In this document: piece by piece, positions 1-11,630 of the stretch
How the letters are laid out: each line of letters begins with the position of its first letter
How positions within the stretch are numbered: position 1 is the stretch's first letter
Assembly (NCBI GenBank): GCA_043808325.1
Contig: JAZDEY010000031.1
Location: 10,997-74,996, forward strand
Direction: 5' to 3'
DNA from: Candidatus Eiseniibacteriota bacterium
GTDB taxonomy: Bacteria > Arandabacterota > Arandabacteria > Arandabacterales > Arandabacteraceae
Length of the DNA: 64,000 nt
The notes under the pieces: model-generated
What the model was told of the DNA's origin: nothing
Database searches by the model: none
What the model saw: the letters and a program-made list of their open reading frames with translations, nothing else
Program-made: the position numbers and the translations under genes

Positions 1-3000
1 GGTGAGTGGAATGCGACGTTGGACGGTGCTACGTATACTGGACAGTGGAAGGGCGTCGCACTGCTCGACTCCTCTCAACGCAGGATTGACCTAAGGGGGG
101 CAATATCGGGCGACCTGGTCGGTACCTGCGAAGGTTACATAGAGGAGTCTGCACCTGGAACGGGAATTTACAGCCAGTATCGGGCGAGCTGGGGGTTGAA
201 TAGCGTCGGCTCCGCTGCTGGTCCACGTGCTCTCGAGCTTAGTGGGGTTCTAGTCTACGACGGAGTGCGTGAGTCTCCAATTGCGCTCTCCATATACCAG
301 GGGCTGATGGAAGGGCAATTGCATGGCAGATACGCAGGACCGATGAATGCAATGGTGACGCGTGCCTGTGTGACCGATGGAAATGAGATGGAAGGGAAAG
401 GCTTCGCTGTGATCTCCTACAATTCCAGCCTGGGTTCTGGGCTCGGCTGGGGTTTTGTCGGCTCCTGTTCATCAATCCGAGGAGTGTGTGATGAACCGCT
501 CGCTGGGACGCTCTCCGCCTTTCTAGACACAGGGCAGTCGCCAGCAGAACTTCACGGCTTCATACACCGTGGCGATCCTGAGCAGTTTTTGCTGCCTGAT
601 CTACAGTTGACGATATGGGGGCCCGGCCGAGTTAGTCCGGGCCAGACAGTAGACTACCTCATCCAGTGCAGGAACGCTGGGTTGATGCCGACTGCAGATA
701 TCAGCATAGTCAGCAAGCTTCCCTATCTCGCAGAATATCTGACAAGCTCGAGTGGAGGTATCTATAATGTGGATGCTCAGGAACTCACATGGAACCTGGG
801 TAGCATACCTCCGACGTCGGTCAGACTGATGTCTTTTCGGGAGACAATGGCATGGGGCATCCCGGAGGGCAGTTCTGTTGAACACAGTGTTTACGCACCA
901 CTTGAGCGCACCGAGGTGCCAGTTGATTCAAATGTGACTGTCTCGTATGAGATTCTCGAAGAGAGCGAAGACTCTCTTGTAATCGAGGCGACTTTTTCCA
1001 GCAATACTGATAGCGGTAGCGTGCATCTGGCCCTCTCTGTTACCGACGTACCAGAGGAAGCAGAGCCACTTCTGAACGCTACTGAGATTCCTGGAGGCTT
1101 GGAATACCGTTGGGAATTCACCGTAGAAGGGCATTCGACGGACGTGATTAAGGCGGCTTTCGAGACATCGAGAGACGCTTCTGATATCACTGATCGATGG
1201 GTAGAGGTTCGGGATGCTAGAGTGGCTCAAGGAGAGCATCAAAGATTCCTGGACTGGCTTCGAGACGAAGGTCTAATCGGGCAGGAGACCCATTCAACCT
1301 ATACGTTCTGGAACGGCTTCAGGACCAGAATCCCTGTTATCCGTTGGCTTGTGAGTAGAGTGCCCAGATTTGGATGGATTGAAGGGTGGTTCCCAAAAGG
1401 CACCCCCTTTGGAAGCAGTTATGCCAACTCGATGTTGTGGGCCGAGATCTTGCCTAGTCTACAGTTCAAGTGGTATTCGGGCGAAATACCGTTTGAAGCC
1501 GATACCTTGGACAAATTGTATATGTTCTGGAAGCGAGAGATATCGTGTGGAACTGGCGATTGCGTTCATGATGCATCCTGGGCTGCCAGCACGATTACGA
1601 CTGCGCGCGATCCCAATATCAAGCATGGTCCTGCTGAAAGCATTCAGCCTGGTCAGACGTTGGAATATGAAATCGAATACGAGAATGAGGGAGAAGGTAT
1701 CGCATTCGGCGTTTACATCACAGACATTCTGGATGACGATCTTGATGAAACTAGTCTGACCATAGAAGATGGGGGCAGCTACGACGTCTCAACTCGCACG
1801 GTCACGTGGATGGTCGGACGAGTTGATCCTGGCCAGACGGGAACTGTCATCTTCAGCATCAACCTTAGGAGTAATGCGCTTCCTGGTACTGAGGTGATCA
1901 ACTATGCTACTGTGTACTTCCCTAGCGTCCCGGAGATCACGAGGACTAACGGCGTAGTATGCAGGGTCCCCGTGAACGAGCCGCCTATTGCAGATGCTGG
2001 GCCCGATCAGACAGTGGAATGCTCGTCCTGCGAAGGTGCTCAGGTGATCTTGGATGGATCGGGCTCAAGCGACCCCGACAACGACCCGCTGACCTTTGCC
2101 TGGTGTGAGAACGGCCACATCATCGCTGGCCCGATTGCCGACCCGATTTCTACTGTAGTACTTGCATGCGGCACCCACAACGTCGGGCTCACGGTCGACG
2201 ATGGTCAGGGCGAGAAGGACACCGATGAGGTCCTGATCAATGTGGTCGACACTACGCCACCGGTGATCACGGTTACTCTCAATCGGGATGTGCTCTGGCC
2301 GCCGAGCCACAAGCTGGCCGACATCATGGCCCACGTGGAAGTCAGGGACATCTGCGATCCGGCTCCAACCTTCGTGCTGGTTGCGATCACGAGCGACGAG
2401 CCGGACAACGGGCATGGAGACGGCGATACCCCGGGAGATGTTCAGGGTGCGGACTTTGGCACGCCGGACCTTGCCTTCCAGCTTCGGTCCGAGCGCAGCG
2501 GGGGCGGCGGCGGGCGGATCTACACGATCACCTACCTGGGCTTGGACCATTCCGGCAACTCGACCCCCGTCGAGGTCTATGTGCGTGTGCCGCACGATCA
2601 GTCCGGGATGGCGCTTGCCGCGCAGGGCTACAGCTCGGATGGCACTTGCTTTGATCCGGTGAGTGAGAGGTTTGCGGTTGTGATCCCATCGAGCGAGGCG
2701 GGGGCACTGGATGCCACCGGGATTGACCCCGCTAGAGCTTACATCGGGAACCTGAAGGGCGTCCTGGTCGCTCAGGATCACCTTGAGCTTGATGCCACCG
2801 ACGACGGCCTCAGGGATCTTGTGCTCTGGTATTCGCTGGTGGACGCTCAATGGCTGTTCGGATCCACGGTCATGAGTGCCGAGAATGCGTGGCTCCGCGT
2901 GGCGTTCGATCCCGAGGCGCCTGGCGCGCCCGTGGATCTAGGCGACCCGAGGGCGCCGTACGGTCCGGTCGGACTGCACTACGTGTGCGCTGACGGCATT

Positions 3001-3369
3001 GACTATCTTGTGCCGAACATCTTCCAGCTGGGAGTGCCGTTGCAGCTCGAGGGAGCAGTCAATGCTTCCGGTGTTGACGACCGGCCGATTCAGGGCACGG
3101 CGCTCTTGCCGATCCGTCCCAATCCTCTCCGCCAGACTACGATCATAGCTTTCAATCTGGCTGCGCCGGGATCGGTGAATCTTGACATCTACAATGTTCG
3201 GGGCATGCTCGTGCGAACGCTCGAAGACGGCGTGCTCACGGCCGGCGAGCACAGCTCGGCATGGGATGCCAGAGACTCGGTGGGGAGGCCCGTGGCCGCT
3301 GGGATCTATTTCGCGCGGTTCCGTGCAGGTGGCATCCAGACCATGCAGAAGATGTTGCTGGTGAGGTGA
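1..3369 (+). CDS. Large secreted/surface protein, T9SS cargo. Contains a DUF11-like conserved repeat, a PKD domain and Ig-like domains, and ends in a T9SS type-A (FlgD-Ig-like) C-terminal sorting domain. Probably 5'-partial: frame open to nt 1, first in-frame TTG at 19.
   Basis: ORF 19..3369 stays open upstream to nt 1. PKD-like segment 'ADAGPDQTVECSSCEGAQVILDGSGSSDPDNDPLTFAW'. C-terminus 'LPIRPNPLRQTTIIAFNLAAPGSVNLDIYNVRGMLVRTLEDGVLTAGEHSSAWDARDSVGRPVAAGIYFARFRAGGIQTMQKMLLVR' matches the T9SS/Por C-terminal sorting-domain pattern. Confidence 0.8.
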   Translation, partial: GEWNATLDGATYTGQWKGVALLDSSQRRIDLRGAISGDLVGTCEGYIEESAPGTGIYSQYRASWGLNSVGSAAGPRALELSGVLVYDGVRESPIALSIYQGLMEGQLHGRYAGPMNAMVTRACVTDGNEMEGKGFAVISYNSSLGSGLGWGFVGSCSSIRGVCDEPLAGTLSAFLDTGQSPAELHGFIHRGDPEQFLLPDLQLTIWGPGRVSPGQTVDYLIQCRNAGLMPTADISIVSKLPYLAEYLTSSSGGIYNVDAQELTWNLGSIPPTSVRLMSFRETMAWGIPEGSSVEHSVYAPLERTEVPVDSNVTVSYEILEESEDSLVIEATFSSNTDSGSVHLALSVTDVPEEAEPLLNATEIPGGLEYRWEFTVEGHSTDVIKAAFETSRDASDITDRWVEVRDARVAQGEHQRFLDWLRDEGLIGQETHSTYTFWNGFRTRIPVIRWLVSRVPRFGWIEGWFPKGTPFGSSYANSMLWAEILPSLQFKWYSGEIPFEADTLDKLYMFWKREISCGTGDCVHDASWAASTITTARDPNIKHGPAESIQPGQTLEYEIEYENEGEGIAFGVYITDILDDDLDETSLTIEDGGSYDVSTRTVTWMVGRVDPGQTGTVIFSINLRSNALPGTEVINYATVYFPSVPEITRTNGVVCRVPVNEPPIADAGPDQTVECSSCEGAQVILDGSGSSDPDNDPLTFAWCENGHIIAGPIADPISTVVLACGTHNVGLTVDDGQGEKDTDEVLINVVDTTPPVITVTLNRDVLWPPSHKLADIMAHVEVRDICDPAPTFVLVAITSDEPDNGHGDGDTPGDVQGADFGTPDLAFQLRSERSGGGGGRIYTITYLGLDHSGNSTPVEVYVRVPHDQSGMALAAQGYSSDGTCFDPVSERFAVVIPSSEAGALDATGIDPARAYIGNLKGVLVAQDHLELDATDDGLRDLVLWYSLVDAQWLFGSTVMSAENAWLRVAFDPEAPGAPVDLGDPRAPYGPVGLHYVCADGIDYLVPNIFQLGVPLQLEGAVNASGVDDRPIQGTALLPIRPNPLRQTTIIAFNLAAPGSVNLDIYNVRGMLVRTLEDGVLTAGEHSSAWDARDSVGRPVAAGIYFARFRAGGIQTMQKMLLVR

Positions 3370-3790
3370 GGGATCGTCCTCGATTCGGGGACAGGACCCG
3401 GCCGGGACTTAGGGCCCGGCCGCTCTAGGTTGCGAGCCTGGCCGCCTCGTCATGATCGATGAAGCAGCCAGGCTTCTTAGTAACCCTCTTTCTGGATGGG
3501 CGGGAACCAAGAGTCTTTGATGGTTGCTTTTCTCCCTGATGGGACCAGTGGGGTTGGTCCTGCCCATCCGACAGATGTCCTCCCACTCAGGTTGTCAAGG
3601 GGCTGACAATAGCCGGATGCGCGGAGGATGCCCCCACGAGGATTGCGCGATGGCGGAGCTTCCCCCCGTTGGTTGGACAGTTTCTGGGGTAGAATAAGCT
3701 AATTTTTGGTCGCTCGTCCACCTCCTTGTTCTGACTCCTTGGCGCCCCCGGAGTGGCGGACACACCACCCGAATTCTGACCCTCGGCACC

Positions 3791-4033
3791 TTGTTTGAGC
3801 CTCCTGCGACCACCGGCGACTGGGTCACCAACCACCAAAACGTGATCGTCACTGGCCCCACCGGCTGCGGCAAGACCTTTGTGGCCTGCGCCCTCGCACA
3901 CAAGGCGTGTCGGCAGGGCCATCGGGCCATCTACTTCTATGCACCCAAACTCTTCCGCAGCCTTACCCTCGCTCAGGCTGACGGCAGCCTACCCAGCCTC
4001 CTTAAGAAGATCGCCAACACCTCTACCTCCGTC
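3791..4033 (+). pseudogene. istB: Truncated IS21-family IstB (transposition helper ATPase) fragment. Only the Walker-A region survives; downstream ORF sequence is low-complexity and non-homologous.
   Basis: 'NVIVTGPTGCGKTFVACALAHKACRQGHRAIYFYAPKLFRSLTLAQADGSLPSLLKKIA' matches the IstB Walker-A/ATPase core. The N-terminal ~100 aa and C-terminal half are absent. The translation turns into S/T/P-rich low complexity after ~aa 80. Confidence 0.6.
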
Positions 4034-4276
4034 CTCGCCGTCCCTGCCAAATCCACCGCTTCCATCACCAACTCCCATCTCGCCCTGCACTCTAAACTAT
4101 CCTCGGTTCACTGTCTCACCATTATTGGCAGAGAGGGTCAGCAGGAAGCTATCACCTGCGGAGTCATAGGCAAGACGGGCTGCCTCATTGCGTCAACCTT
4201 GAACCGTGATGCTTCAGGCAGACCTCGGGGTCACATCCAACGCCCTATCACCTCGAGTGCGGTGACGCTCTGTTGC

Positions 4277-5269
4277 TCAGACTCTCCCGGATAAGTATCT
4301 CGCCATAAGGGGGAGCATTCGATTGAGGTTCCCTATCGTTCCCCCACGTTTGTCAGCTCTCCCCCCGAATTCTATGGGAAGATAGGTCTTCCAGACATCG
4401 AGCTCGAAATCATCCTCATCAGTAGCTTCGCTACCCACAAAGCTACTCAACAAGCGCCCCGTATCCTTGTCCTCGAAGAGGTGGTACAAGTCTGGGTGTT
4501 CCGAGATGAGGCCGCGCACTACCGACGGATAAGTTAGGAGGAACTGCCTGAGTCCATAGAAGTTCCTGTGAATGTGACCCTGCAGATTAGACTGGCCCAG
4601 AGCCCGGTCATAGACTACATCTGCTGCCTCTTCGGGTTGCTGCTGAAGCCATGTCTTGAAAGCTTCGTAGTCACCAAAACGGGGATTCATATCACGAGAA
4701 ACCTGAGGAATCCGGTCTTCCTGTGATACCGGTAGTTGTCTCCTCCTGCGCTCCCGCTGGTATCGCCGAACGCCAGCCCGGTGCTTCCGAACGTAATCGG
4801 AGAGTTCATCAAGGGTAGTGGCTCTCAGCCCCACTCTATAACCATCAAGCGCCTTCCTAAGCCGCTCCACCACTCTGAGGGATTTCGTCCGTTGGATGAC
4901 CTCATCCCCGCCACCAAAACCCCGAACGGAGAAATTGGAGCTTCCTACGAGCGCTTGAGCACTGCCTATGTAGACCTTTGCGTGTGCCAACGGACTGGTG
5001 TAGAGACTGACTCTGGTTCCAGCCTCTAAACAGCCCTGGAGCATCTCGAGAAGTGCGTCCGGAGCCACCAGCCCCTTCTTCCATTCATCTGGTGAGTCCA
5101 AGTCAAGTCTGCACATGAAGTTGAACCGTGCAGGCGTGAATCTTACTTTAGAGAATGCCCCTGTAGAGTAGAACCCGGTTGCGAAGTCGAGCCGTCCTCC
5201 GTCGAGCCCAATCCGTTCAAGGTCAAGAAAGGTGGGCCCCGCTATCAGGTCAAAGTCCCTCAGCCTCAT
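4277..5269 (-). CDS. PLD-superfamily (single HKD-like motif) protein, putative nuclease. The C-terminal ~200 aa are uncharacterised.
   Basis: HKD-like motif 'HAKVYIGSAQALVGSSNF' (HxK...GSxN) near the N-terminus. ATG at 5269 preceded by GGAGG 7 nt upstream on the minus strand. Divergent from the MTase gene. Confidence 0.55.
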   Translation of the reverse strand: MRLRDFDLIAGPTFLDLERIGLDGGRLDFATGFYSTGAFSKVRFTPARFNFMCRLDLDSPDEWKKGLVAPDALLEMLQGCLEAGTRVSLYTSPLAHAKVYIGSAQALVGSSNFSVRGFGGGDEVIQRTKSLRVVERLRKALDGYRVGLRATTLDELSDYVRKHRAGVRRYQRERRRRQLPVSQEDRIPQVSRDMNPRFGDYEAFKTWLQQQPEEAADVVYDRALGQSNLQGHIHRNFYGLRQFLLTYPSVVRGLISEHPDLYHLFEDKDTGRLLSSFVGSEATDEDDFELDVWKTYLPIEFGGRADKRGGTIGNLNRMLPLMARYLSGRV

Positions 5270-5480
5270 CTGGAACCTCCTCGAGAATCAACAGACAGCA
5301 TAAGCCTGCTATCGCCTGCTCACGCCTGAGTATATTCCAGCCTCCTCCCCACATCAACCCCGCCCCGCTGGTCTGGTCGTCAGTCCAGAATGAGATATTG
5401 CAGTCTCGGGCACAATGGAATACTATCTGCGTGACTTGTGTGGGATGAACGTGGCTTCTGCTTAGGGCTATGGTGACACC

Positions 5481-8321
5481 TTGTTCAGAGAAGAGGTAAT
5501 AAACGTCAAGATGGCAGAGCTCCTCTGCGATTACGGTCTTGACGCCATTCCCGAGACGATTACTCCACATAAGAAGCTGCCGGACGTCAGCATTCTGGTG
5601 CGAGGCACAAAGCTAATCCTTGAAGGTAGGAAAGCCTCTCAGAGAGCTCAGCTTGAGAAAGACGCCAAGGGCAGGATTGAGCAGGGATTGTGTGACATCA
5701 GTATGGCGATTGTGTATCACCCCGAGCTTTATGCCTGCACAACGACCGAGAAGCTGGCAGATAGCCTAAGAGTCTATTCCTACGGGGGTCGTCTCTTCTA
5801 TCAGACGAAGGAGGGAATCAAGCAAGAAACGCTTGCCGGGGTGGACATCGAGACTCTTGTAGCGTCGATTAATGCCGGGGTGAGCCTGCTTGTGGACAGT
5901 GACGTCCTCGCGGCGACAGTCGATGAAGTAAAGGGCAAATTGGAGCAGATAGTCGAGTATGCCTCGGCTGGCAGCTTCTGGTTCGACGAGACAGTAATCG
6001 CACGCCTTAAGGAAGCTCTCGGGCTTGAGGAAGAAGATGAAACAGAGAAATTCAAGAAAGACCTTATAAGGATAGCTATGTTCGTTCTGTTTGACGGGAT
6101 GGTCTTTCATGAGATGATAGCCAACTGCCGCATCAAGGTGGACTCGCTCACCCTTTGCTCAGAATCGCAAAAGCTATTCTTCGATGATGAGTGGAAAAGG
6201 ATTCTGAAGATAAACTATGAACCAATATTCAATCTCGCGTTCTGCATCCTCAGTGCGCTTCCAACGGGTAGCCCGGAAACCGAGAGTCTGCTGAAGAACT
6301 TGCGAGAACTGGCACTTCGAACCGTGGCGACAGGCATCCTCCGAAAACACGACTTCATGGGAAGGATATACCACAAGCTTCTGCTCAAGACCACGGGGAA
6401 GTATTACGCCACCAATTACACGGCAGTTCCGTCTGCCTACCTGTTGGCCTATCTGCTCTACAAGACTCCCAGCGACAGTCTGCCCCTGTCGAGCATGAGA
6501 GACTTGAAGGCAATGAGGATTATAGACCCGGCCTGTGGCTCGGGGACTCTGCTGTCAGCGAGCTATGTAGCGCTGAGAGACATTTATGCATGCGTGCTCA
6601 CGGCAGATGAGTTACCTGACTTTCACAAGACCCTTCTGCAGAAGACCATCTATGGATGGGATGTCCTGGACTATGCAACCCATCTGACGCTGACCGTTTT
6701 GGGGCTTCACAGCACACCCACCTTGGTCAGGAAGACCAATATGACCACGCTCGCCAATGGCGCCGATGATACGGGCACTTACTTGGGCAGCCTCTCATAC
6801 TTGAATCTTCACGCATCCCTTAAGGGGAAGACATGGGTGAAGCCTTCGAAGACCCAGTCTATGGACAAGGTGACCCAGACCTATAAGCCGATGAACATAC
6901 CACCGGGCACATTCAACGTAGTCATAATGAATCCGCCTTTCTCGAGGAGCGCTAAGCCGAACTGCAAGTTCGGATACAAGTCAGAGGTCATCAAGAAGAG
7001 GATGGCCGCAGAGCTGGCGAAAATCCTCGTCTACAGTGGACTGGATGGAACTGGCCAAGCGGGTCTAGGAGCCCCGTTCATCGGCCTCGCAGACAACCTC
7101 TTGAAGCCGGGCGGGCGATTAGGTGTCGTAATACCTCGTGCCATTCTGTCAGGTGTCTCATGGAAGAAAATCCGGGATCTCCTCCACAAAGACTACGAGA
7201 TTAGATACATAATCTCGAACCATGACCCTGGAGACCGGGCAAGTGGCGTGGAGCCCTGGAACTGGAGTGAGGATACTGACTTGGGCGAGGTTATGATTAT
7301 CGCTGAGAAGACCACTAAGCTTCCGGCAGACAGAGAAACGGTTTACGTCAACCTCTGGAACAAACCAAGAAATGAAGTTGACTCGATACTTATATCTCAT
7401 CAGATTGTTTCGAAGCGCCCCGAGGGACTCCTCAGCGAAGGCGTGTTTGAGACTTTGAAGATGAAGCGGGATGTGGAAGTGGGCACTTTCTACAGACTCC
7501 GGCAATCGGAGCTTGCTGATGGCTGGCTCGCTCCTTGCTTGTTTGCCAACCCCAGCCTTAACAGATTCACGATGGAGCTGAGGCAGATGTTGCCGACTGC
7601 CGGCATCCACGGCCTTCTGAAGACCTGGAGCTCAATGAACAAGACAGGTCCTGTGCGGTGCTTTGACGGTGTTGATATCAAGCAAGTGAAAACCGCCTTC
7701 GAGCAAACCTCGGTGCAAACAGAGTTCCCTATCCTGTGGGGGCAACAGTCGGCAATGAATCGGCTCTATCTCGGTGAGGATTTCATCGGATATGGCAGGG
7801 CCAAGTCTGCCGATTCCGCTCGATTGCACGAGATTAACAAGTCCTCGTTTATCCTATCTGAGCGGCCTCATCTTCATAATGATGCTCTGATAGCTTTCAG
7901 GACAGCAAGAGCGGTGCTCACTACGGCGTTCTGGGAGCTTGGGTTTCGAGATGCTGAGATAGAGCCTCTAATGCTCCTATGGTTTAATTCCACCTTCGGG
8001 TTGCTCCTATACCTGTCAGCCTCTACGAGCAGCATGGGCGAGATTTTCAAGACCAAGAAGGCCCAGATGAGCCTCATGAGGGTTATTGACCCTGGTAAGC
8101 TCAAGGAAGGGGCCTCCGTCAGGAGCGCCGAGTTATTCAAGGCTATCAATGAGAGGGAGTTCAGGGCGTTTCCCGAAGAGTTCGCGCTCGCTGCAAAGGG
8201 CGAGGGTCTAAGGGCCGAGGTTGACAAGTTCTTTAGCGACGAGCTCGAGCTTGCTTATGACTTAAGGCCATACTACGAGATGTTGGCAAACGAGCCCGCA
8301 CTGACACTCAAGCGCCTCTGA
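5481..8321 (+). CDS. Large gamma-class N6-adenine DNA methyltransferase fusion protein. Candidate single-chain Type IIG/IIL (MmeI-like) restriction-modification enzyme: N-terminal putative nuclease region, central MTase, C-terminal target-recognition region.
   Basis: SAM-binding motif I 'IIDPACGSGTLL' (~aa 355) and catalytic motif IV 'VIMNPPFSRS' (~aa 485). Order I then IV with ~130 aa spacing is typical of the gamma class. Size (946 aa) and domain order parallel MmeI/BpuSI-type enzymes. N-terminal 'LPDVSILVRGTKLILEGRK' is a possible degenerate PD-(D/E)xK. TTG start at 5481, alternative ATG at 5511. Confidence 0.6.
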   Translation: MFREEVINVKMAELLCDYGLDAIPETITPHKKLPDVSILVRGTKLILEGRKASQRAQLEKDAKGRIEQGLCDISMAIVYHPELYACTTTEKLADSLRVYSYGGRLFYQTKEGIKQETLAGVDIETLVASINAGVSLLVDSDVLAATVDEVKGKLEQIVEYASAGSFWFDETVIARLKEALGLEEEDETEKFKKDLIRIAMFVLFDGMVFHEMIANCRIKVDSLTLCSESQKLFFDDEWKRILKINYEPIFNLAFCILSALPTGSPETESLLKNLRELALRTVATGILRKHDFMGRIYHKLLLKTTGKYYATNYTAVPSAYLLAYLLYKTPSDSLPLSSMRDLKAMRIIDPACGSGTLLSASYVALRDIYACVLTADELPDFHKTLLQKTIYGWDVLDYATHLTLTVLGLHSTPTLVRKTNMTTLANGADDTGTYLGSLSYLNLHASLKGKTWVKPSKTQSMDKVTQTYKPMNIPPGTFNVVIMNPPFSRSAKPNCKFGYKSEVIKKRMAAELAKILVYSGLDGTGQAGLGAPFIGLADNLLKPGGRLGVVIPRAILSGVSWKKIRDLLHKDYEIRYIISNHDPGDRASGVEPWNWSEDTDLGEVMIIAEKTTKLPADRETVYVNLWNKPRNEVDSILISHQIVSKRPEGLLSEGVFETLKMKRDVEVGTFYRLRQSELADGWLAPCLFANPSLNRFTMELRQMLPTAGIHGLLKTWSSMNKTGPVRCFDGVDIKQVKTAFEQTSVQTEFPILWGQQSAMNRLYLGEDFIGYGRAKSADSARLHEINKSSFILSERPHLHNDALIAFRTARAVLTTAFWELGFRDAEIEPLMLLWFNSTFGLLLYLSASTSSMGEIFKTKKAQMSLMRVIDPGKLKEGASVRSAELFKAINEREFRAFPEEFALAAKGEGLRAEVDKFFSDELELAYDLRPYYEMLANEPALTLKRL

Positions 8322-8822
8322 GCAATGGTCGCCCCCGACAGGCTTGTGCAAGACCCTTCCCCTGTTTGCCGTCAGATGAAAGTGGACACGAGAGGGGTAT
8401 AATCTAAGCTGCACTTTGGAGGTCTTCTTGGCCTCAGCCCATTCCTTGTAACTGATTTTTTCACAATGGGTTAGGAGATTCTGCAATTGGCTTGGCGGTG
8501 TTCGTCTAATTGCTTCAATATCAACGAGATGCAGAAAACGAGACCAACGTGAAACCAATTCTACATTCGAGGCATCTTTCTGCCTTCTCGTCGCTTCTTC
8601 ATCTCTCGCTGTCTTCCTGGTTCTCCTCAGTCGCATTTGGGACAAACGAGTCGATAGTCCTCTCAATCAGATCACTTTCCTTTCGGATCGCGCAGACAGA
8701 TACGTAGCTAGTACCCGCAGAATGACCGGGGGGCGGATGTTGCCCATGGCGTTCTTTGGAGGTGCACACAATCCCGGGGAATTGCTGCTCATCTTCCGAG
8801 ATATAGGAACACGAAGGGTGGG

Positions 8823-11630
8823 GTGGTGCTCTCTCATGGGATGGTTGCCACCAGTTCGAACTCCACCACTGGTTGTATTGCGTCCACGGCATCGGCATGC
8901 CTGAGGAGGCAGGGGAAATCCGAGGATGCCCTGGCCCTCCTCGAGGGGCTGATCCCTTCGTTCGAGGGCCGCGGGAGACGCGACCTACTTGCCGAGAAGG
9001 CCACGCTACTTTGTCTTGTCGGTAGGTACGGCGAGGCCGGGGATATCTGTGAGATGGTTCAGCGGGAGGAATCCGTCAGTGAGCGCTGCAAGGATGCCGG
9101 TGTGTATCTCGTCCTCGGCCACGTCCTTTCGAGGCTCTGCAAGTGGAAGCAGGCAATTGCTTGTCTGGAGCATGCGGCCACTTTCGCCAGGATGTCCGGC
9201 GATGCAAGTGCTCTGGGGAACGCTCTCAACAATCTTGGAATCGTTTACAAGAATCTGTGCAGATTTGATGACTCGGCAAGGTTACTGCGGCGGGCAGTAC
9301 GGGTAGCTCGGCGCACGCGTGACGATGCGAGTCTTTCAGTGCGGCTCCTCAATCTCGCCACAACCCTCTTTAAGCAGGGTGAGATCCAAGAGGCCGATAG
9401 CGCAGTTTCCGAATGCATCAAGATCTCGTCGCTTCTCAGTCTTAGACGGACCCAGAGTCTGGCGACGATATGCAGGGCAAGGATTGAGAAGGTGCGGGGC
9501 AGGCTTGGGGAGGCGGTTAGCCTGCTCAAGCGGGTGATAGCTGAAGCCCAGTCGCTTGACGAGCCGAGAGTGGGGCTCCTGGCAGAGGAAACCCTGGGGG
9601 AAGTTCTCTGCGAACAGGGTGACCTCTCCCAGGCTCGGCGAGTGCTTGAAGAGTGTCTCGGGAAGGTCCCCGAGCATGCCAAGGACCTAGAGGCCGAAAT
9701 CAAGTGCCGGCTTGCGGAAGTCTATCTGGCGCTGGGGACGAAAGACCGGGCACGACGCTGCGGCACCGAGGCCCTGAAAGTTGCCGAGTCCACTGGTGAT
9801 CTCTATGAGGCCGCCAGGTGTCTTCGCGTGCTGGCGGGGACCGCGGCAACCCCGGCGGACGCAGCGAAGCTGCTTTCCAAGGCCGATCATACCTTCGCCC
9901 AAATGGGAGCCAGGCTGGAGCGCGCTCTGACTCTTGAGGCAAGGGCCGCCTTGGCCGGAGTCTTTGAGTCGACCCGGGCCAAGACGGTGGAAGAGGCCAT
10001 ATCGGTGCTTGAGATCTGCTGCGCTCACGGCAGATTGACGCGCGCCCTTTGTCTGGCAGCTTCGATCTATCTGGACGAGGGGCGGGATCATGACGCCATG
10101 ATGTCGCTCAAGAAAGCCGAGGACCTGGCAGGCGAGTCCACGCTCAAGCGCGCGGTCTCACAGGTGCGCGTGAAGCTCGACCGGCGCCTGTCAGAGAAAC
10201 TGGTGTGGCCTGCGGAGGCAGGCCTGGCTACCGCGCAAGAGGCCTTCGCTTTTCTGCGCACGAGGCTGGGTGCGACCGGCTTGATCCTGGGAAAACCGAG
10301 TGAGGATGGACCTCCCGAAGTGGTCACCGCCCTGGGGATAGATCCGGAGACCGCCGTCGGGTTGCTCAAAGCTGTCTCCGCGCGTGGTCCGGGTCCGGTG
10401 GTCTCGACCAACGTGACCGATCTGGCCCCCACTCTTGGGGCTCGCCCCGCCTTAAGGTCGCTCCTGGGCGTCAGCCTCGGCGCCGGCGCCTCAGATGCCC
10501 TCTGCTTGACATGCTGGCCGTCGGGCGGCAAACTGGGCCTTCATTCGGAAATCTCGTATCTCGTCGAGGCATATTATGAGATCCTCCGGCTCGCGCCTGT
10601 TCTTGAGCGAGCCATGTTGCCCGGTCGCGAATGCGTGGTGCCGATCTGCCTGGGTGGCATTCTGACTGCCGATCGGCGGCTGAAGGAAATCCTGTTGTCG
10701 CTTGCGAAGATCGCACGCACACGCGCCAACGTACTCGTCACCGGCGAGACCGGGACCGGCAAAGAGCTGGTAGCTCGAGTCATTCATGCCCTGAGCCCAA
10801 GGAAGCGTGAGCCTTTCGTCGTGCAGAACTGCGCCGCCTTGCCTGAGAGCCTCCTGGAGAGTGAGCTCTTTGGATACCGTCAGGGAGCTTTTACCGATGC
10901 CCGGACCGAAAAGCGTGGTCTCTTGGAGACCGCGAGCGGGGGTACCTTCTTTCTCGATGAGATCGGAGACATCTCTGCGTCGACACAGGCCAAGATGCTC
11001 AGGGCGATCGAGAGTGGAGAGATCAGGCGGCTCGGGGACACAGTGGCTCGTCCCGTAGATGTTCGTTTCATAAGTGCCACCAACAAGCAACTCGAGCAGG
11101 AGGTGGAGCGGGGGCAGTTCCGCCGCGACCTCTACTACAGACTGAATGTTGTCGCGCTCGCACTTCCACCCTTGAGGGACCGAAGAGGCGACATCGCTCT
11201 TCTGGCCAGGCTTTTCCTCAAACGCCTGGAAGGGCGGGGACGTAAGTGCTCCCTTCGGATTGATCCCGGGGCCATGCGCGCTCTCGCCAATTACACCTGG
11301 CCCGGCAACGTGAGGCAGCTTGAGAATGAGATCCAGCGGGCGGTCGCCATCCTTGGCTCCGATGATGTCGTCGGCGTGGGCTCACTCTCCCCATCGGTCA
11401 CCGGGCACGGGATCGGCGGCCAGGTGACCACCCTGAAGGATGAGGTTCGCCTTGTCGAGCGGTCGCGGATTCTTAGCGTGCTTGAGAGGTGTGCTTGGAA
11501 CAAGACCCATGCCGCCAAGATGCTCGGCGACCTCAGCCGTCCGGCCCTGATCGGCAAGATGAAGCGGCTTGGGATCCCGCTTGCCAGGCCTGACGCTCAG
11601 GGGCAGCGGCTCTCGCCTCTCGGCGGCTAG
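8823..11630 (+). CDS. Sigma-54-dependent transcriptional activator (bacterial enhancer-binding protein) with a long N-terminal TPR-like sensory region and a C-terminal Fis-type HTH.
   Basis: AAA+ sigma54-interaction domain: Walker A 'VTGETGTGKELVARVIH', 'GYRQGAFTDA' (GAFTGA variant), 'GTFFLDEIGD', 'RRDLYYRLNV', 'WPGNVRQLENEI'. C-terminal HTH 'HAAKMLGDLSRPALIGKMKRLGI'. Exact start uncertain (8823 or downstream). Confidence 0.85.
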   Translation: MVLSHGMVATSSNSTTGCIASTASACLRRQGKSEDALALLEGLIPSFEGRGRRDLLAEKATLLCLVGRYGEAGDICEMVQREESVSERCKDAGVYLVLGHVLSRLCKWKQAIACLEHAATFARMSGDASALGNALNNLGIVYKNLCRFDDSARLLRRAVRVARRTRDDASLSVRLLNLATTLFKQGEIQEADSAVSECIKISSLLSLRRTQSLATICRARIEKVRGRLGEAVSLLKRVIAEAQSLDEPRVGLLAEETLGEVLCEQGDLSQARRVLEECLGKVPEHAKDLEAEIKCRLAEVYLALGTKDRARRCGTEALKVAESTGDLYEAARCLRVLAGTAATPADAAKLLSKADHTFAQMGARLERALTLEARAALAGVFESTRAKTVEEAISVLEICCAHGRLTRALCLAASIYLDEGRDHDAMMSLKKAEDLAGESTLKRAVSQVRVKLDRRLSEKLVWPAEAGLATAQEAFAFLRTRLGATGLILGKPSEDGPPEVVTALGIDPETAVGLLKAVSARGPGPVVSTNVTDLAPTLGARPALRSLLGVSLGAGASDALCLTCWPSGGKLGLHSEISYLVEAYYEILRLAPVLERAMLPGRECVVPICLGGILTADRRLKEILLSLAKIARTRANVLVTGETGTGKELVARVIHALSPRKREPFVVQNCAALPESLLESELFGYRQGAFTDARTEKRGLLETASGGTFFLDEIGDISASTQAKMLRAIESGEIRRLGDTVARPVDVRFISATNKQLEQEVERGQFRRDLYYRLNVVALALPPLRDRRGDIALLARLFLKRLEGRGRKCSLRIDPGAMRALANYTWPGNVRQLENEIQRAVAILGSDDVVGVGSLSPSVTGHGIGGQVTTLKDEVRLVERSRILSVLERCAWNKTHAAKMLGDLSRPALIGKMKRLGIPLARPDAQGQRLSPLGG

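What the first reader, a model, noticed from the sequence alone, without database searches (positions are those of the whole stretch)
5481..8321. 946-aa gamma-class N6-adenine methyltransferase fusion with MmeI-like (Type IIL/IIG) architecture, a candidate single-chain RM enzyme
Motif I (IIDPACGSGTLL) at ~aa 355 and motif IV (NPPF) at ~aa 485 sit in the middle of a ~950-aa polypeptide. That leaves a ~350-aa N-terminal region and a ~400-aa C-terminal region. This matches the nuclease-helical spacer-MTase-TRD layout of MmeI (919 aa) and BpuSI. The N-terminus contains 'LPDVSILVRGTKLILEGRK', a possible divergent PD-(D/E)xK. No separate specificity or restriction subunit genes are adjacent. It could alternatively be an orphan PglX/BREX-type MTase. 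The specificity and cleavage behaviour would be novel either way.
Basis: partly seen in the sequence, partly recalled or inferred. Interest (0 to 1): 0.6.

Follow-up and report, generated by a model that had tools for sequence, protein, structure and literature searches.

The report
Nuclease–methylase fusion with PLD nuclease neighbour

Summary
The 946-aa ORF (5481-8321, +) and all three quoted motifs are real. A confident AlphaFold model (pLDDT 86, pTM 0.90) shows four parts. The N-terminal domain has a PD-(D/E)xK nuclease fold whose closest solved relatives are archaeal Hjc resolvases. A helical connector follows, then a gamma-type N6-adenine methyltransferase, then a C-terminal recognition region. 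The best whole-chain structural match is the Type IIG enzyme BpuSI. MmeI, BREX PglX and MADS MAD2 membership tests all fail.

The family is large: 281 loci in species genomes, nearly all MAGs, from bacteria and archaea. It usually has no conserved neighbour. About half the loci carry the roughly 200-aa nuclease module as a separate upstream gene. The catalytic Asp35 and Glu48 are invariant. The canonical Lys is present in most members but is Arg50 in this protein.

ORF 4277-5269 (-) encodes a 330-aa PLD/HKD protein related to NgoFVII-type endonucleases. Its homologues flank this methylase family in at least five independent loci, in three orientations. Elsewhere they sit in DrmD + Type III RM cassettes.

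Verdict: a Type IIG-like restriction-modification enzyme of an uncharacterised family, with an optional PLD accessory nuclease. Cleavage activity and specificity are untested. Interest is moderate.

The parts
5481..8321 (+). 946-aa nuclease-connector-methyltransferase-TRD fusion gene (TTG start, stop included)
   Evidence: ORF list and translation. P0001 is 100% identical and annotated 'N-6 DNA methylase', Candidatus Eisenbacteria MAG. AF2 model has pLDDT 86.2 and pTM 0.90. Best PDB match is BpuSI.
5481..5846 (+). N-terminal PD-(D/E)xK (Hjc-like) nuclease domain, aa 1 to about 122
   Evidence: Secondary structure is H4-17, E22-27, E36-40, E43-51, H52-67, E73-79. Foldseek top hits are archaeal Hjc, E about 4e-4, probability 1.0. 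Invariant residues are N8, P34, D35, G42, E48, R65 and Y79. No Pfam family matches.
5577..5633 (+). PD-x12-E-x-R motif (LPDVSILVRGTKLILEGRK, aa 33-51); Arg50 occupies the canonical Lys position
   Evidence: hhalign against Sso Hjc 1hh1 pairs PD34-35 with PD41-42, E48 with E55 and R50 with K57. Position 50 is K in most of 96 family N-domains, and R or E in sub-clades.
5847..6344 (+). all-helical connector, aa about 123-288; the fusion/split junction lies at about aa 195-205
   Evidence: Helices 123-284 in the model. In 45 of 96 loci the gene is split here into a roughly 200-aa gene and a roughly 750-aa gene. This corresponds to the BpuSI connector 175-289 (PMC3185434).
6345..7235 (+). gamma-type N6-adenine methyltransferase domain, aa about 289-585
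   Evidence: Pfam N6_Mtase scores 31.4 bits and Eco57I 33.7 bits, both above cut-off. This is the most conserved region of the family, 52% mean pairwise identity.
6519..6554 (+). motif I, AdoMet binding (IIDPACGSGTLL, aa 347-358)
   Evidence: Position. D349, C352, G353, S354, G355, T356, L357 and L358 are invariant in 36 homologues.
6930..6941 (+). motif IV, catalytic NPPF (aa 484-487)
   Evidence: Position. M483, N484, P485 and P486 are invariant; position 487 is F or Y.
7236..8318 (+). C-terminal target-recognition-like region (alpha/beta, aa about 586-824) plus terminal helical bundle (aa about 825-946)
   Evidence: Confidently modelled, with most blocks at pLDDT 90 or above. The MTase and C-terminal region aligns with CamA, target-normalised TM about 0.65, and with M.BseCI, BpuSI and DrdV. 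The target sequence is unknown.
4277..5269 (-). 330-aa PLD/HKD nuclease-like gene, divergently transcribed; candidate accessory nuclease of the system
   Evidence: Pfam PLDc_2 scores 24.4 bits, below the cut-off of 27. Of 33 family members, 31 hit PLDc_2 and 14 hit RE_NgoFVII. Homologues adjoin the MT family in L008/L013, L110, L120 and L121.
4931..4984 (-). single HKD catalytic motif (HAKVYIGSAQALVGSSNF, aa 96-113)
   Evidence: H96, K98, G109, S110 and N112 are invariant in 33 homologues. Position.
4277..4672 (-). conserved C-terminal domain of the PLD protein (aa about 200-330, ...GTIGNLNRMLPL...), no known family
   Evidence: Invariant residues include R222, G225, H232, R241, Q242, W293, Y296, P298 and G313-N316. 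No Pfam hit even at E of 10 or less. No PDB sequence match.
5270..5480 (.). 211-bp divergent intergenic region between the PLD gene and the fusion gene
   Evidence: Sequence. One weak promoter-like site on the minus strand at 5357-5329, no more than chance would give.
3791..4294 (+). IS21 IstB helper-ATPase fragment at the edge of the low-GC island
   Evidence: The IstB_IS21 / NF038214 match covers only profile positions about 83-153 of 232. Island 3370-8822 has GC 0.538, against 0.595 for the rest of the window.

Best explanation
The ORF encodes a Type IIG-like restriction-modification enzyme of an uncharacterised family.

Proposed mechanism:
- The C-terminal recognition region and the gamma-type N6-adenine methyltransferase clamp a specific DNA sequence.
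- Host sites are methylated with AdoMet.
- At unmodified sites, the N-terminal Hjc-like PD-(D/E)xK domain cuts DNA. The helical connector tethers it, and it probably pairs with the same domain of a second molecule, as proposed for MmeI and BpuSI.
- In this locus and a minority of relatives, the adjacent PLD/HKD protein acts as an accessory second nuclease of the same system.
- The two genes arrived together on a small low-GC island next to an IS21 remnant.

Shown: the domain architecture, the folds, conservation of the MTase and acidic nuclease residues, the family's solitary gene context, the fused and split forms, and the recurrent PLD linkage.

Inferred: actual cleavage, AdoMet dependence, dimerisation, the target sequence, and any physical or functional coupling with the PLD protein.
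For: - Architecture: AF2 pLDDT 86, pTM 0.90. The best PDB match is BpuSI (E 3.7e-20, 1057 alignment columns), followed by CamA, BrxX/PglX, DrdV, BsaXI and M.BseCI. Domain boundaries of about 1-122, 123-288, 289-585 and 586-946 parallel BpuSI 6-174/175-289/293-579/580-876 (PMC3185434) and MmeI 1-155/156-300/301-620/621-919 (PMC4833311).
[quoted passage not shown] Hjc resolvases are the top structural hits. hhalign pairs PD/E/R50 with Hjc PD42/E55/K57. D35 and E48 are invariant in 36 and in 96 sequences, although the domain is only 37% identical on average.
- MTase: motifs I and IV are invariant.
- Self-sufficiency: about 90 loci share no conserved neighbour, and the contexts are defence islands or mobile elements.
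- Modularity: the nuclease module is always kept, fused in 50 loci or as the immediately upstream gene in 45. The N-domain profile finds 691 clusters. The 150 best listed are either short proteins (mostly about 190-215 aa) or the N-terminus of 900-1100-aa proteins, plus a few intermediate lengths.
- PLD partner: the HKD residues are invariant. Family members match RE_NgoFVII/PLDc_2. The gene adjoins the MT family in five independent loci in divergent, co-directional and convergent orientations. MT-linked PLDs fall into two groups.
Against: - In this protein and its nearest clade, the residue at the canonical catalytic Lys position is Arg50. Some close homologues have Trp, and one clade has Glu. 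PD-(D/E)xK catalysis is therefore unproven here.
- No member of the family has been characterised, and no methylome or cleavage data exist.
- The PLD partner is absent from most family loci: none of the roughly 75 loci outside the Arg50 clade has it.
- In most of its own loci the PLD partner sits in DrmD + Type III cassettes, so its role here is inferred from adjacency alone.
- The two full-length homologues found in cultured hosts lie on plasmids among establishment-type genes. That would also suit an orphan protective methylase.
Confidence: 0.6

Rival explanations
1. This is a two-gene system in which the PLD/HKD protein is the real DNA-cutting effector. The fusion protein supplies sequence recognition and self-methylation. 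Its Arg50-variant PD-(D/E)xK domain is catalytically weakened and acts as a DNA-binding, sensing or adaptor module that licenses the PLD nuclease.
For: - All five PLD-linked loci carry Arg at position 50, and none of the roughly 75 loci with Lys or Glu at that position has a PLD neighbour. In the set collected through the MT gene alone, 2 of 10 against 0 of 75 gives Fisher p = 0.013.
- The HKD catalytic residues are invariant.
- PLD-type restriction endonucleases are established (BfiI, NgoFVII; PMC4081073).
- The same PLD family accompanies other methyltransferase-guided systems.
Against: - Most Arg50-clade loci (L001, L002, L003, L005, L009, L012, L014, L022) have no PLD gene, so the fusion protein must work without it.
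- E4/E5, D35 and E48 stay strictly conserved in the PLD-linked members. That argues for a working metal site.
- Arg keeps the positive charge, and invariant R65 on the second core helix could also supply it. Lys migration to that helix is documented (PMC3424549).
Confidence: 0.2
2. This is an orphan (solitary) N6-adenine methyltransferase with a vestigial nuclease-like N-terminus. It would serve epigenetic regulation, or protect a mobile element from host restriction, and would not restrict DNA.
For: - No partner gene is conserved in about 90 loci.
- The plasmid homologues in Aminobacter and Sulfuricystis lie among leading-region-type genes: a zincin/ArdC-like peptidase, DUF5710, DUF3560 and PRTRC.
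- The C-terminal two thirds resemble the orphan methylase CamA.
- The canonical Lys is missing here.
Against: - The nuclease module is retained in every one of 96 loci, even where it is a separate gene that could easily be lost.
- Its D35, E48, N8, R65 and Y79 are invariant across bacteria and archaea.
- The genes lie in defence islands or next to integrases, and here next to a PLD nuclease.
Confidence: 0.12
3. This is a BREX PglX-type or MADS MAD2-type methyltransferase, that is, one component of a larger multi-gene defence system whose other genes lie elsewhere.
For: Weak local matches of the MTase motifs: PADLOC mad2 at 5e-12 and PglX at 1e-6. BrxX/PglX structures are among the Foldseek hits.
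Against: - NCBIfam MAD2 scores 49 bits against a cut-off of 720. BREX-1 PglX scores 28 against 500.
- The matches cover only motifs I to IV.
- PADLOC scans of the gene's immediate neighbours and of ten large ORFs further along (18-61 kb) gave no BREX or MADS component. Pfam shows ordinary metabolic and regulatory genes there.
- No such genes recur in about 90 related loci.
- PglX has no PD-(D/E)xK N-domain of this kind.
Confidence: 0.02

Closest known systems
RM.BpuSI (Type IIG/IIS/IIC restriction-modification enzyme, PDB 3S1S)
   Same: The domains come in the same order with nearly the same boundaries: N-terminal PD-(D/E)xK nuclease, helical connector, gamma N6A MTase, C-terminal TRD. It is the best whole-chain structural match (PMC3185434).
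   Different: - Sequence identity is only about 12%. The family profile matches BpuSI only over the MTase motifs (E 7e-8).
- The BpuSI nuclease is FokI-like with PD-x15-ExK. Here it is Hjc-like with PD-x12-ExR.
- The BpuSI operon has two extra methyltransferase genes. This locus has none, and has a PLD nuclease gene instead.
MmeI family (Type IIL), including DrdV
   Same: A solitary gene with no companion methyltransferase. The five-part layout includes a terminal helical bundle after the TRD (PMC4833311). DrdV is among the structural hits.
   Different: - Pfam MmeI_Mtase scores below its cut-off and is partial. No other MmeI-named Pfam family is hit.
- The family profile scores MmeI 5hr4 at E 0.93, and MmeI is not in the top 50 Foldseek hits.
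- One-strand methylation and 20/18 cleavage are untested.
Archaeal Holliday junction resolvase Hjc (e.g. S. solfataricus 1HH1/4TKK)
   Same: The N-terminal domain shares its fold. The catalytic pattern has identical spacing: E5...D35-x12-E48-x-R50 against E12...D42-x12-E55-x-K57.
   Different: - Here it is a tethered or partnered module of a methyltransferase, not a free dimeric resolvase.
- Lys is replaced by Arg in this protein.
- The Pfam scan of the N-domains returned no nuclease or Hjc family.
PLD-type restriction endonucleases (BfiI, NgoFVII/NgoAVII) and DISARM DrmC
   Same: The neighbour protein has one HKD motif per chain in an N-terminal PLD domain followed by a second domain. Family members match Pfam RE_NgoFVII and PLDc_2. 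Like DrmC, it is a PLD protein riding with a methyltransferase-based defence system.
   Different: - The C-terminal domain matches no known family. The Pfam scans returned no hit of any kind, and so no B3-type DNA-binding domain.
- PADLOC DrmC models do not match. Only weak DpdK and ZacB hits appear.
- Its partner here is a Type IIG-like fusion, not a separate Type II methylase or the DrmA/DrmB pair.
Proposed split Type IIG of Haloferax volcanii (HVO_A0006 + HVO_A0237; PMC4389544)
   Same: It is a precedent for a Type IIG nuclease-plus-connector fragment encoded apart from the MTase-TRD protein. About half of this family shows the same split.
   Different: - It is a different family (PD-x14-EAK).
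- There the fragments are dispersed and were seen as decay products.
- Here the split genes are adjacent and conserved in 45 loci, in all three frame relations.

Membership tests
Type IIG restriction-modification enzymes (definition in PMC4081073) | DNA-cleavage domain and gamma-class MTase domain in one protein chain | tested here: met
   PD-(D/E)xK fold at aa 1-122 and N6A MTase at aa 289-585, with motif I before motif IV and the recognition region at the C-terminus, in one 946-aa ORF.
Type IIG restriction-modification enzymes | Specificity module shared by R and M, either C-terminal or a separate S subunit | tested here: met
   The confidently modelled C-terminal alpha/beta region aligns with the DNA-recognition parts of BpuSI, CamA, M.BseCI and DrdV. 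No HsdS-like gene is adjacent. This is fold-level evidence only; the target sequence is unknown.
Type IIG restriction-modification enzymes | Complete nuclease catalytic site | tested here: inconclusive
   E4/E5, D35 and E48 are present and invariant. The canonical Lys is Arg50 in this protein, Lys in most of the family.
Type IIG restriction-modification enzymes | AdoMet-stimulated or AdoMet-dependent DNA cleavage | not testable with these tools
   Needs biochemistry.
MmeI family / Type IIL | Sequence membership (Pfam MmeI_Mtase and the other MmeI domain families; similarity to MmeI itself) | tested here: not met
   MmeI_Mtase scores 26.7 bits against a cut-off of 27 and covers profile positions 16-82 of 259. 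No other MmeI-named family is reported at E of 0.01 or less. The family profile scores 5hr4 at E 0.93.
MmeI family / Type IIL | Single protein, no companion methyltransferase | tested here: met
   No second MTase gene in the island. No conserved neighbour in about 90 loci.
MmeI family / Type IIL | Methylation of one strand only; cleavage about 20/18 nt downstream; two sites needed | not testable with these tools
   Needs methylome and cleavage mapping.
BREX PglX (BrxX) | Scores above the NCBIfam BREX MTase cut-off | tested here: not met
   NF033452 scores 28.3 bits against 500. NF033454 scores 14.4 against 900.
BREX PglX (BrxX) | Linked BREX genes (PglZ, BrxC, BrxL and others) | tested here: not met
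   PADLOC scans of the gene's immediate neighbours and of ten large ORFs at 18-61 kb gave no BREX component, and Pfam shows ordinary metabolic and regulatory genes there. No such gene recurs in related loci.
MADS MAD2 methyltransferase | Scores above the NCBIfam equivalog cut-off | tested here: not met
   NF047738 scores 49.1 bits against 720. PADLOC mad2 matches only aa 266-581.
PD-(D/E)xK nuclease superfamily (N-terminal domain) | [quoted passage not shown] | tested here: met
   Topology. Structural hits to Hjc, RecU, I-Ssp6803I and HincII. Residue pairing with Hjc. Caveat: Lys is replaced by Arg in this member.
PLD/HKD nucleases (neighbour gene 4277-5269) | HxK...GSxN catalytic motif | tested here: met
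   H96, K98, G109, S110 and N112 are invariant in 33 homologues.
PLD/HKD nucleases (neighbour gene 4277-5269) | Scores above the Pfam PLDc_2 gathering cut-off | tested here: not met
   The window protein scores 24.4 bits against 27. Of 33 homologues, 31 match PLDc_2 and 14 match RE_NgoFVII at E of 0.01 or less.
DISARM (DrmC / DrmMI pair) | Matches to DrmC and DrmMI models, with DrmA/DrmB present | tested here: not met
   PADLOC gives no DrmC hit for the PLD protein, only DpdK at 1.4e-4. No DrmMI hit appears among the 25 listed of 40 matches, and no DrmA/DrmB genes are nearby.

The most novel reading that the evidence does not exclude
The PLD/HKD protein, with its unclassified C-terminal domain, is a portable 'second nuclease' that docks onto methyltransferase-guided restriction machines of unrelated types. 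These include DrmD + Type III systems and this Type IIG-like family. In the Arg50 clade, the resident PD-(D/E)xK domain would have been demoted from cutter to sensor or adaptor that hands unmodified DNA to the PLD nuclease. Together with the repeated fusion and fission of the nuclease module, the family would then be a natural series of intermediates between one-chain and multi-subunit restriction systems.
Probability: 0.15. Interest if true: 0.65.

Novelty: new variant of a known kind. Interest (0 to 1): 0.42.

Why it matters
If active, this enzyme represents a large, untouched family of combined restriction-modification enzymes. The nuclease-domain profile finds 691 clusters at 50% identity, and species genomes hold 281 loci, spread across uncultured bacteria and archaea. 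Type IIG enzymes change cutting and methylating specificity together, so new families are a source of new specificities and of engineering scaffolds.

The family also offers two natural experiments. One is the nuclease module encoded as a fused domain or as a separate subunit, about half and half. The other is the catalytic Lys replaced by Arg, Trp or Glu in whole clades.

The recurrent PLD neighbour also rides with DrmD + Type III cassettes. It points to an unrecognised accessory nuclease shared between different methylation-based defence systems. None of this overturns current understanding; it extends a known theme.

Tried and rejected
- **BREX/PglX and MADS/MAD2 membership.** Rejected on curated cut-offs and the absence of partner genes.
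- **MmeI-family membership.** Rejected.
- **A conserved partner gene across the family.** I clustered all ORFs of 90 aa or more within 4 kb of the gene in about 90 loci. Only generic families recurred: ABC ATPases, response regulators, MiaB-like proteins and glycosyltransferases.
- **Programmed frameshift as the cause of the split forms.** Rejected. The downstream gene lies in frame +1 (20 loci), +2 (19) or 0 with a stop codon (6).
- **Island boundaries.** No tRNA gene in the window. No convincing flanking direct or inverted repeats. Promoter and terminator scans were at chance level.
- **Sequence-only searches.** The single sequence against the PDB gave only marginal MTase-motif hits. Neither the PLD protein nor its family profile found a solved relative. 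The PLD C-terminal domain has no Pfam hit even at E of 10 or less. PHROGs was uninformative.
- **BFVD viral search.** It returned only generic giant-virus and phage adenine methylases.


Full report
**1. The observation**

The ORF at 5481..8321 (+) is real. It encodes 946 aa from a TTG start. Homologues begin at the same M-FREEV, and the deposited protein P0001 is identical over 946 aa. P0001 is annotated 'N-6 DNA methylase' from a Candidatus Eisenbacteria MAG.

- IIDPACGSGTLL at aa 347-358;
- NPPF at aa 484-487;
- LPDVSILVRGTKLILEGRK at aa 33-51.

One statement is wrong. Just 211 bp upstream, on the other strand, ORF 4277..5269 encodes a 330-aa PLD/HKD nuclease-like protein.

**2. Anatomy of the protein**

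By sequence, only aa 290-580 match known families. Pfam Eco57I and N6_Mtase score above their cut-offs, and MmeI_Mtase just below.

A 36-sequence alignment (A1) gave a confident AlphaFold model, with mean pLDDT 86.2 and pTM 0.90. The model has five parts:
- an alpha/beta domain, aa 1 to about 122;
- an all-helical region, about 123-288;
- the Rossmann-type methyltransferase, about 289-585;
- an alpha/beta region, about 586-824;
- a terminal helical bundle, about 825-946.

Foldseek against the PDB ranks the Type IIG enzyme BpuSI first, at E 3.7e-20 with an alignment across the whole chain. CamA, BrxX/PglX, DrdV, BsaXI and M.BseCI follow. The boundaries mirror published ones: BpuSI 6-174/175-289/293-579/580-876 (PMC3185434) and MmeI 1-155/156-300/301-620/621-825/826-919 (PMC4833311). 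Motifs I and IV are invariant in the family, so the methyltransferase looks competent.

**3. The N-terminal domain is a PD-(D/E)xK nuclease fold**

- The secondary structure is H4-17, E22-27, E36-40, E43-51, H52-67, E73-79. [quoted passage not shown]
- A separate model of aa 1-205 (pLDDT 88) finds archaeal Hjc Holliday-junction resolvases as its best PDB matches, at E about 4e-4 and probability 1.0. RecU, I-Ssp6803I and HincII rank lower.
- Profile comparison with S. solfataricus Hjc pairs P34-D35 with P41-D42, E48 with E55, and R50 with the catalytic K57. I confirmed that the Hjc sequence used is PDB 1HH1.
- The E5-to-D35 distance of 30 residues equals E12-to-D42 in that sequence. That Hjc's catalytic residues are E12, D42, E55 and K57 is my recollection of the literature.
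- N8, P34, D35, G42, E48, R65 and Y79 are invariant in 36 close homologues and conserved in nearly all of 96 N-domains (one search shows single exceptions at N8 and P34), although the domain averages only 37% identity.
- No Pfam family matches the domain.

The caveat is position 50. It is Lys in most of the family (PD-x12-EGK). It is Glu in one clade, and Arg in this protein and its nearest clade. Some close homologues have Trp. Lys migration to the second core helix is documented in this superfamily (PMC3424549), and the invariant R65 lies on that helix. Whether the Arg50 form cuts DNA is nevertheless unknown.

**4. The family**

- The word-indexed search scored 344 homologues.
- One-genome-per-species collections hold 281 loci. 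Nearly all are MAGs: Bathyarchaeia and other archaea, Chloroflexota, Planctomycetota, Desulfobacterota, Armatimonadota and others. Four loci lie in viral contigs.
- The N-domain profile finds 691 clusters at 50% identity among 1.84 billion representatives. The 150 best are either short proteins (mostly about 190-215 aa) or the N-terminus of proteins of about 900-1100 aa, plus a few of intermediate length.
- In 50 loci the gene is fused, as here. In 45 loci the first roughly 200 aa (nuclease plus the start of the connector) are a separate gene immediately upstream of a roughly 750-aa MTase-TRD gene.
- The downstream gene lies in frame +1, +2 or 0 relative to the upstream one (20, 19 and 6 loci). 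These are true separate genes, not a conserved frameshift site.
- A split Type IIG has been proposed before, in Haloferax (PMC4389544).
- Clustering all flanking ORFs in about 90 loci shows no conserved partner. Contexts are defence islands, integrases, prophage-like regions or housekeeping genes.
- The only full-length homologues found in cultured organisms are plasmid-borne, at 28% identity: Aminobacter sp. MSH1 pUSP4 and Sulfuricystis multivorans pSTJ1.

**5. The PLD neighbour**

The 330-aa protein belongs to a family of about 84 proteins of 315-350 aa.
- **N-terminal half.** It carries a single HKD motif, with H96, K98, G109, S110 and N112 invariant. Of 33 members, 31 match Pfam PLDc_2 and 14 match RE_NgoFVII. 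PLD-type restriction endonucleases such as BfiI and NgoFVII are well established (PMC4081073).
- **C-terminal half.** It is strongly conserved (...GTIGNLNRMLPL...) but matches no Pfam family and no solved sequence.

Homologues lie next to the methylase family in five independent loci:

| Locus | Relative orientation | MT form |
|---|---|---|
| Window | divergent | fused |
| L007/L008/L013 (Elusimicrobia) | co-directional, downstream | split |
| L110/L111 | convergent | fused |
| L120 | convergent | split |
| L121/L122 | convergent | fused |

The methylases in these loci are 35-44% identical to the window protein. Adjacency kept through rearrangement and divergence argues for a functional link.

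The link is optional, however. Most family loci lack the PLD gene. All PLD-linked members belong to the Arg50 clade. In the set collected through the MT gene alone, the association is 2 of 10 against 0 of 75, Fisher p = 0.013.

In 14 of 26 loci recovered through the PLD protein itself, it sits in a cassette made of a DrmD-like SNF2 helicase, a long Type III Mod and a Type III Res. A rough NJ tree, without support values, places the MT-linked PLDs in two groups interleaved with Type III-linked ones. The PLD protein therefore behaves like a portable accessory nuclease of methylation-based restriction systems, comparable in role to DISARM DrmC. It does not match the DrmC models.

**6. Local setting**

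The two genes form a low-GC island: 0.538 for 3370-8822 against 0.595 for the rest of the window. The island is bordered by an IS21 IstB fragment at 3791-4294. It lies between a large secreted DUF11/PKD protein and a sigma-54 activator. The large ORFs scanned across the rest of the window are ordinary metabolic, biosynthetic and regulatory genes with no BREX or other defence components. No tRNA gene or boundary repeats were found.

**7. Explanation and rivals**

- **Best explanation (confidence 0.6).** This is a Type IIG-like restriction-modification enzyme. The TRD and MTase read and methylate a specific site. The tethered Hjc-like nuclease cuts unmodified DNA, probably as a dimer of two enzyme molecules as argued for MmeI (PMC4833311). 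The PLD protein is an accessory second nuclease.
- **Rival A (0.2).** In the Arg50 clade the PD-(D/E)xK domain is attenuated, and the PLD protein is the true effector.
- **Rival B (0.12).** An orphan or protective methylase with a vestigial nuclease domain. The universal retention of the nuclease module, even as a separate gene, and its invariant acidic residues weigh against this.
- **Rival C (0.02).** A BREX or MADS component. This is refuted on cut-offs and on context.

**8. Comparison and novelty**

The protein works like BpuSI and MmeI and meets the structural definition of Type IIG (PMC4081073). It is not a member of the MmeI family, of PglX or of MAD2. Three things are new:
- an unclassified Hjc-like nuclease module;
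- the roughly even fused/split dimorphism;
- the optional PLD partner shared with DrmD + Type III cassettes.

I rate it a new variant of a known kind, of moderate interest. A restriction-enzyme specialist would recognise the gene as a putative Type IIG at once. The PLD linkage and the Lys-to-Arg clade are the parts worth an experiment.

Noticed in passing
window 3791-4294 (+), and 3370-8822 overall: An IS21 IstB helper-ATPase fragment covers only profile positions about 83-153 of 232. The 3' end of the PLD gene overlaps it by 18 nt. The surrounding roughly 5.4-kb stretch has GC 0.538, against 0.595 elsewhere. This looks like a small horizontally acquired island with a decayed IS.
   Followed up: partly
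L095, L100-L109, L112, L113, L116 (e.g. L102 390-10256): The same PLD family sits in a four-gene cassette: a DrmD-like SNF2 helicase (PADLOC DrmD, E 8e-203), the PLD protein, a roughly 1030-aa Type III Mod and a roughly 955-aa Type III Res. It has no DrmA or DrmB, so it is not DISARM as defined. I did not find it named in the papers searched.
   Followed up: partly
L051 1975-4833 and 4850-7738; L052 1512-4361 and 4378-7302: Two full-length fused paralogues of the methylase family lie head to tail in Desulfobacterales MAGs. This may be a pair with different specificities.
   Followed up: no
L015, L017, L022, L032, L050, L086 (junction about 600 nt into the match): In six split loci the nuclease ORF and the MTase ORF are in the same frame, separated by a single stop codon. 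I did not examine read-through or recent fission.
   Followed up: no
L123 (Aminobacter sp. MSH1 pUSP4) 5983-8826; L124 (Sulfuricystis multivorans pSTJ1) 5980-8895: The only full-length homologues found in cultured hosts are on mobilizable plasmids. They lie among establishment-type genes: a zincin/ArdC-like peptidase, DUF5710, DUF3560, a PRTRC system and a small N-6 methylase. These strains could provide methylome data.
   Followed up: partly
L001 6811-7940 and 12941-15255: A close fused homologue (P0008) lies in a defence island with an EVE-domain gene, an NmeDI_C-domain gene, an EcoRII-like endonuclease plus C5 methylase, and RecQ/DEAD helicases.
   Followed up: no
window 8823-11630 (+): A 935-aa protein has a long TPR N-terminus followed by a sigma-54 AAA+ activator and a Fis-type HTH. 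It hits the PADLOC 'RtcR_PspF2' model (E 6e-99), but only through the AAA+/HTH part. It is probably an ordinary enhancer-binding protein.
   Followed up: no
window 19-3369 (+): A 1116-aa protein with DUF11, PKD, FlgD_ig and a weak Por_Secre_tail match, which looks like a T9SS-sorted surface protein. It runs right up to the island.
   Followed up: no
P0036, P0062, P0064, P0065 (L009 8001-11324): Some family members are about 1100-1130 aa, roughly 150 aa longer than the rest, while still covering 99% of the query. I did not locate the extra segment.
   Followed up: no
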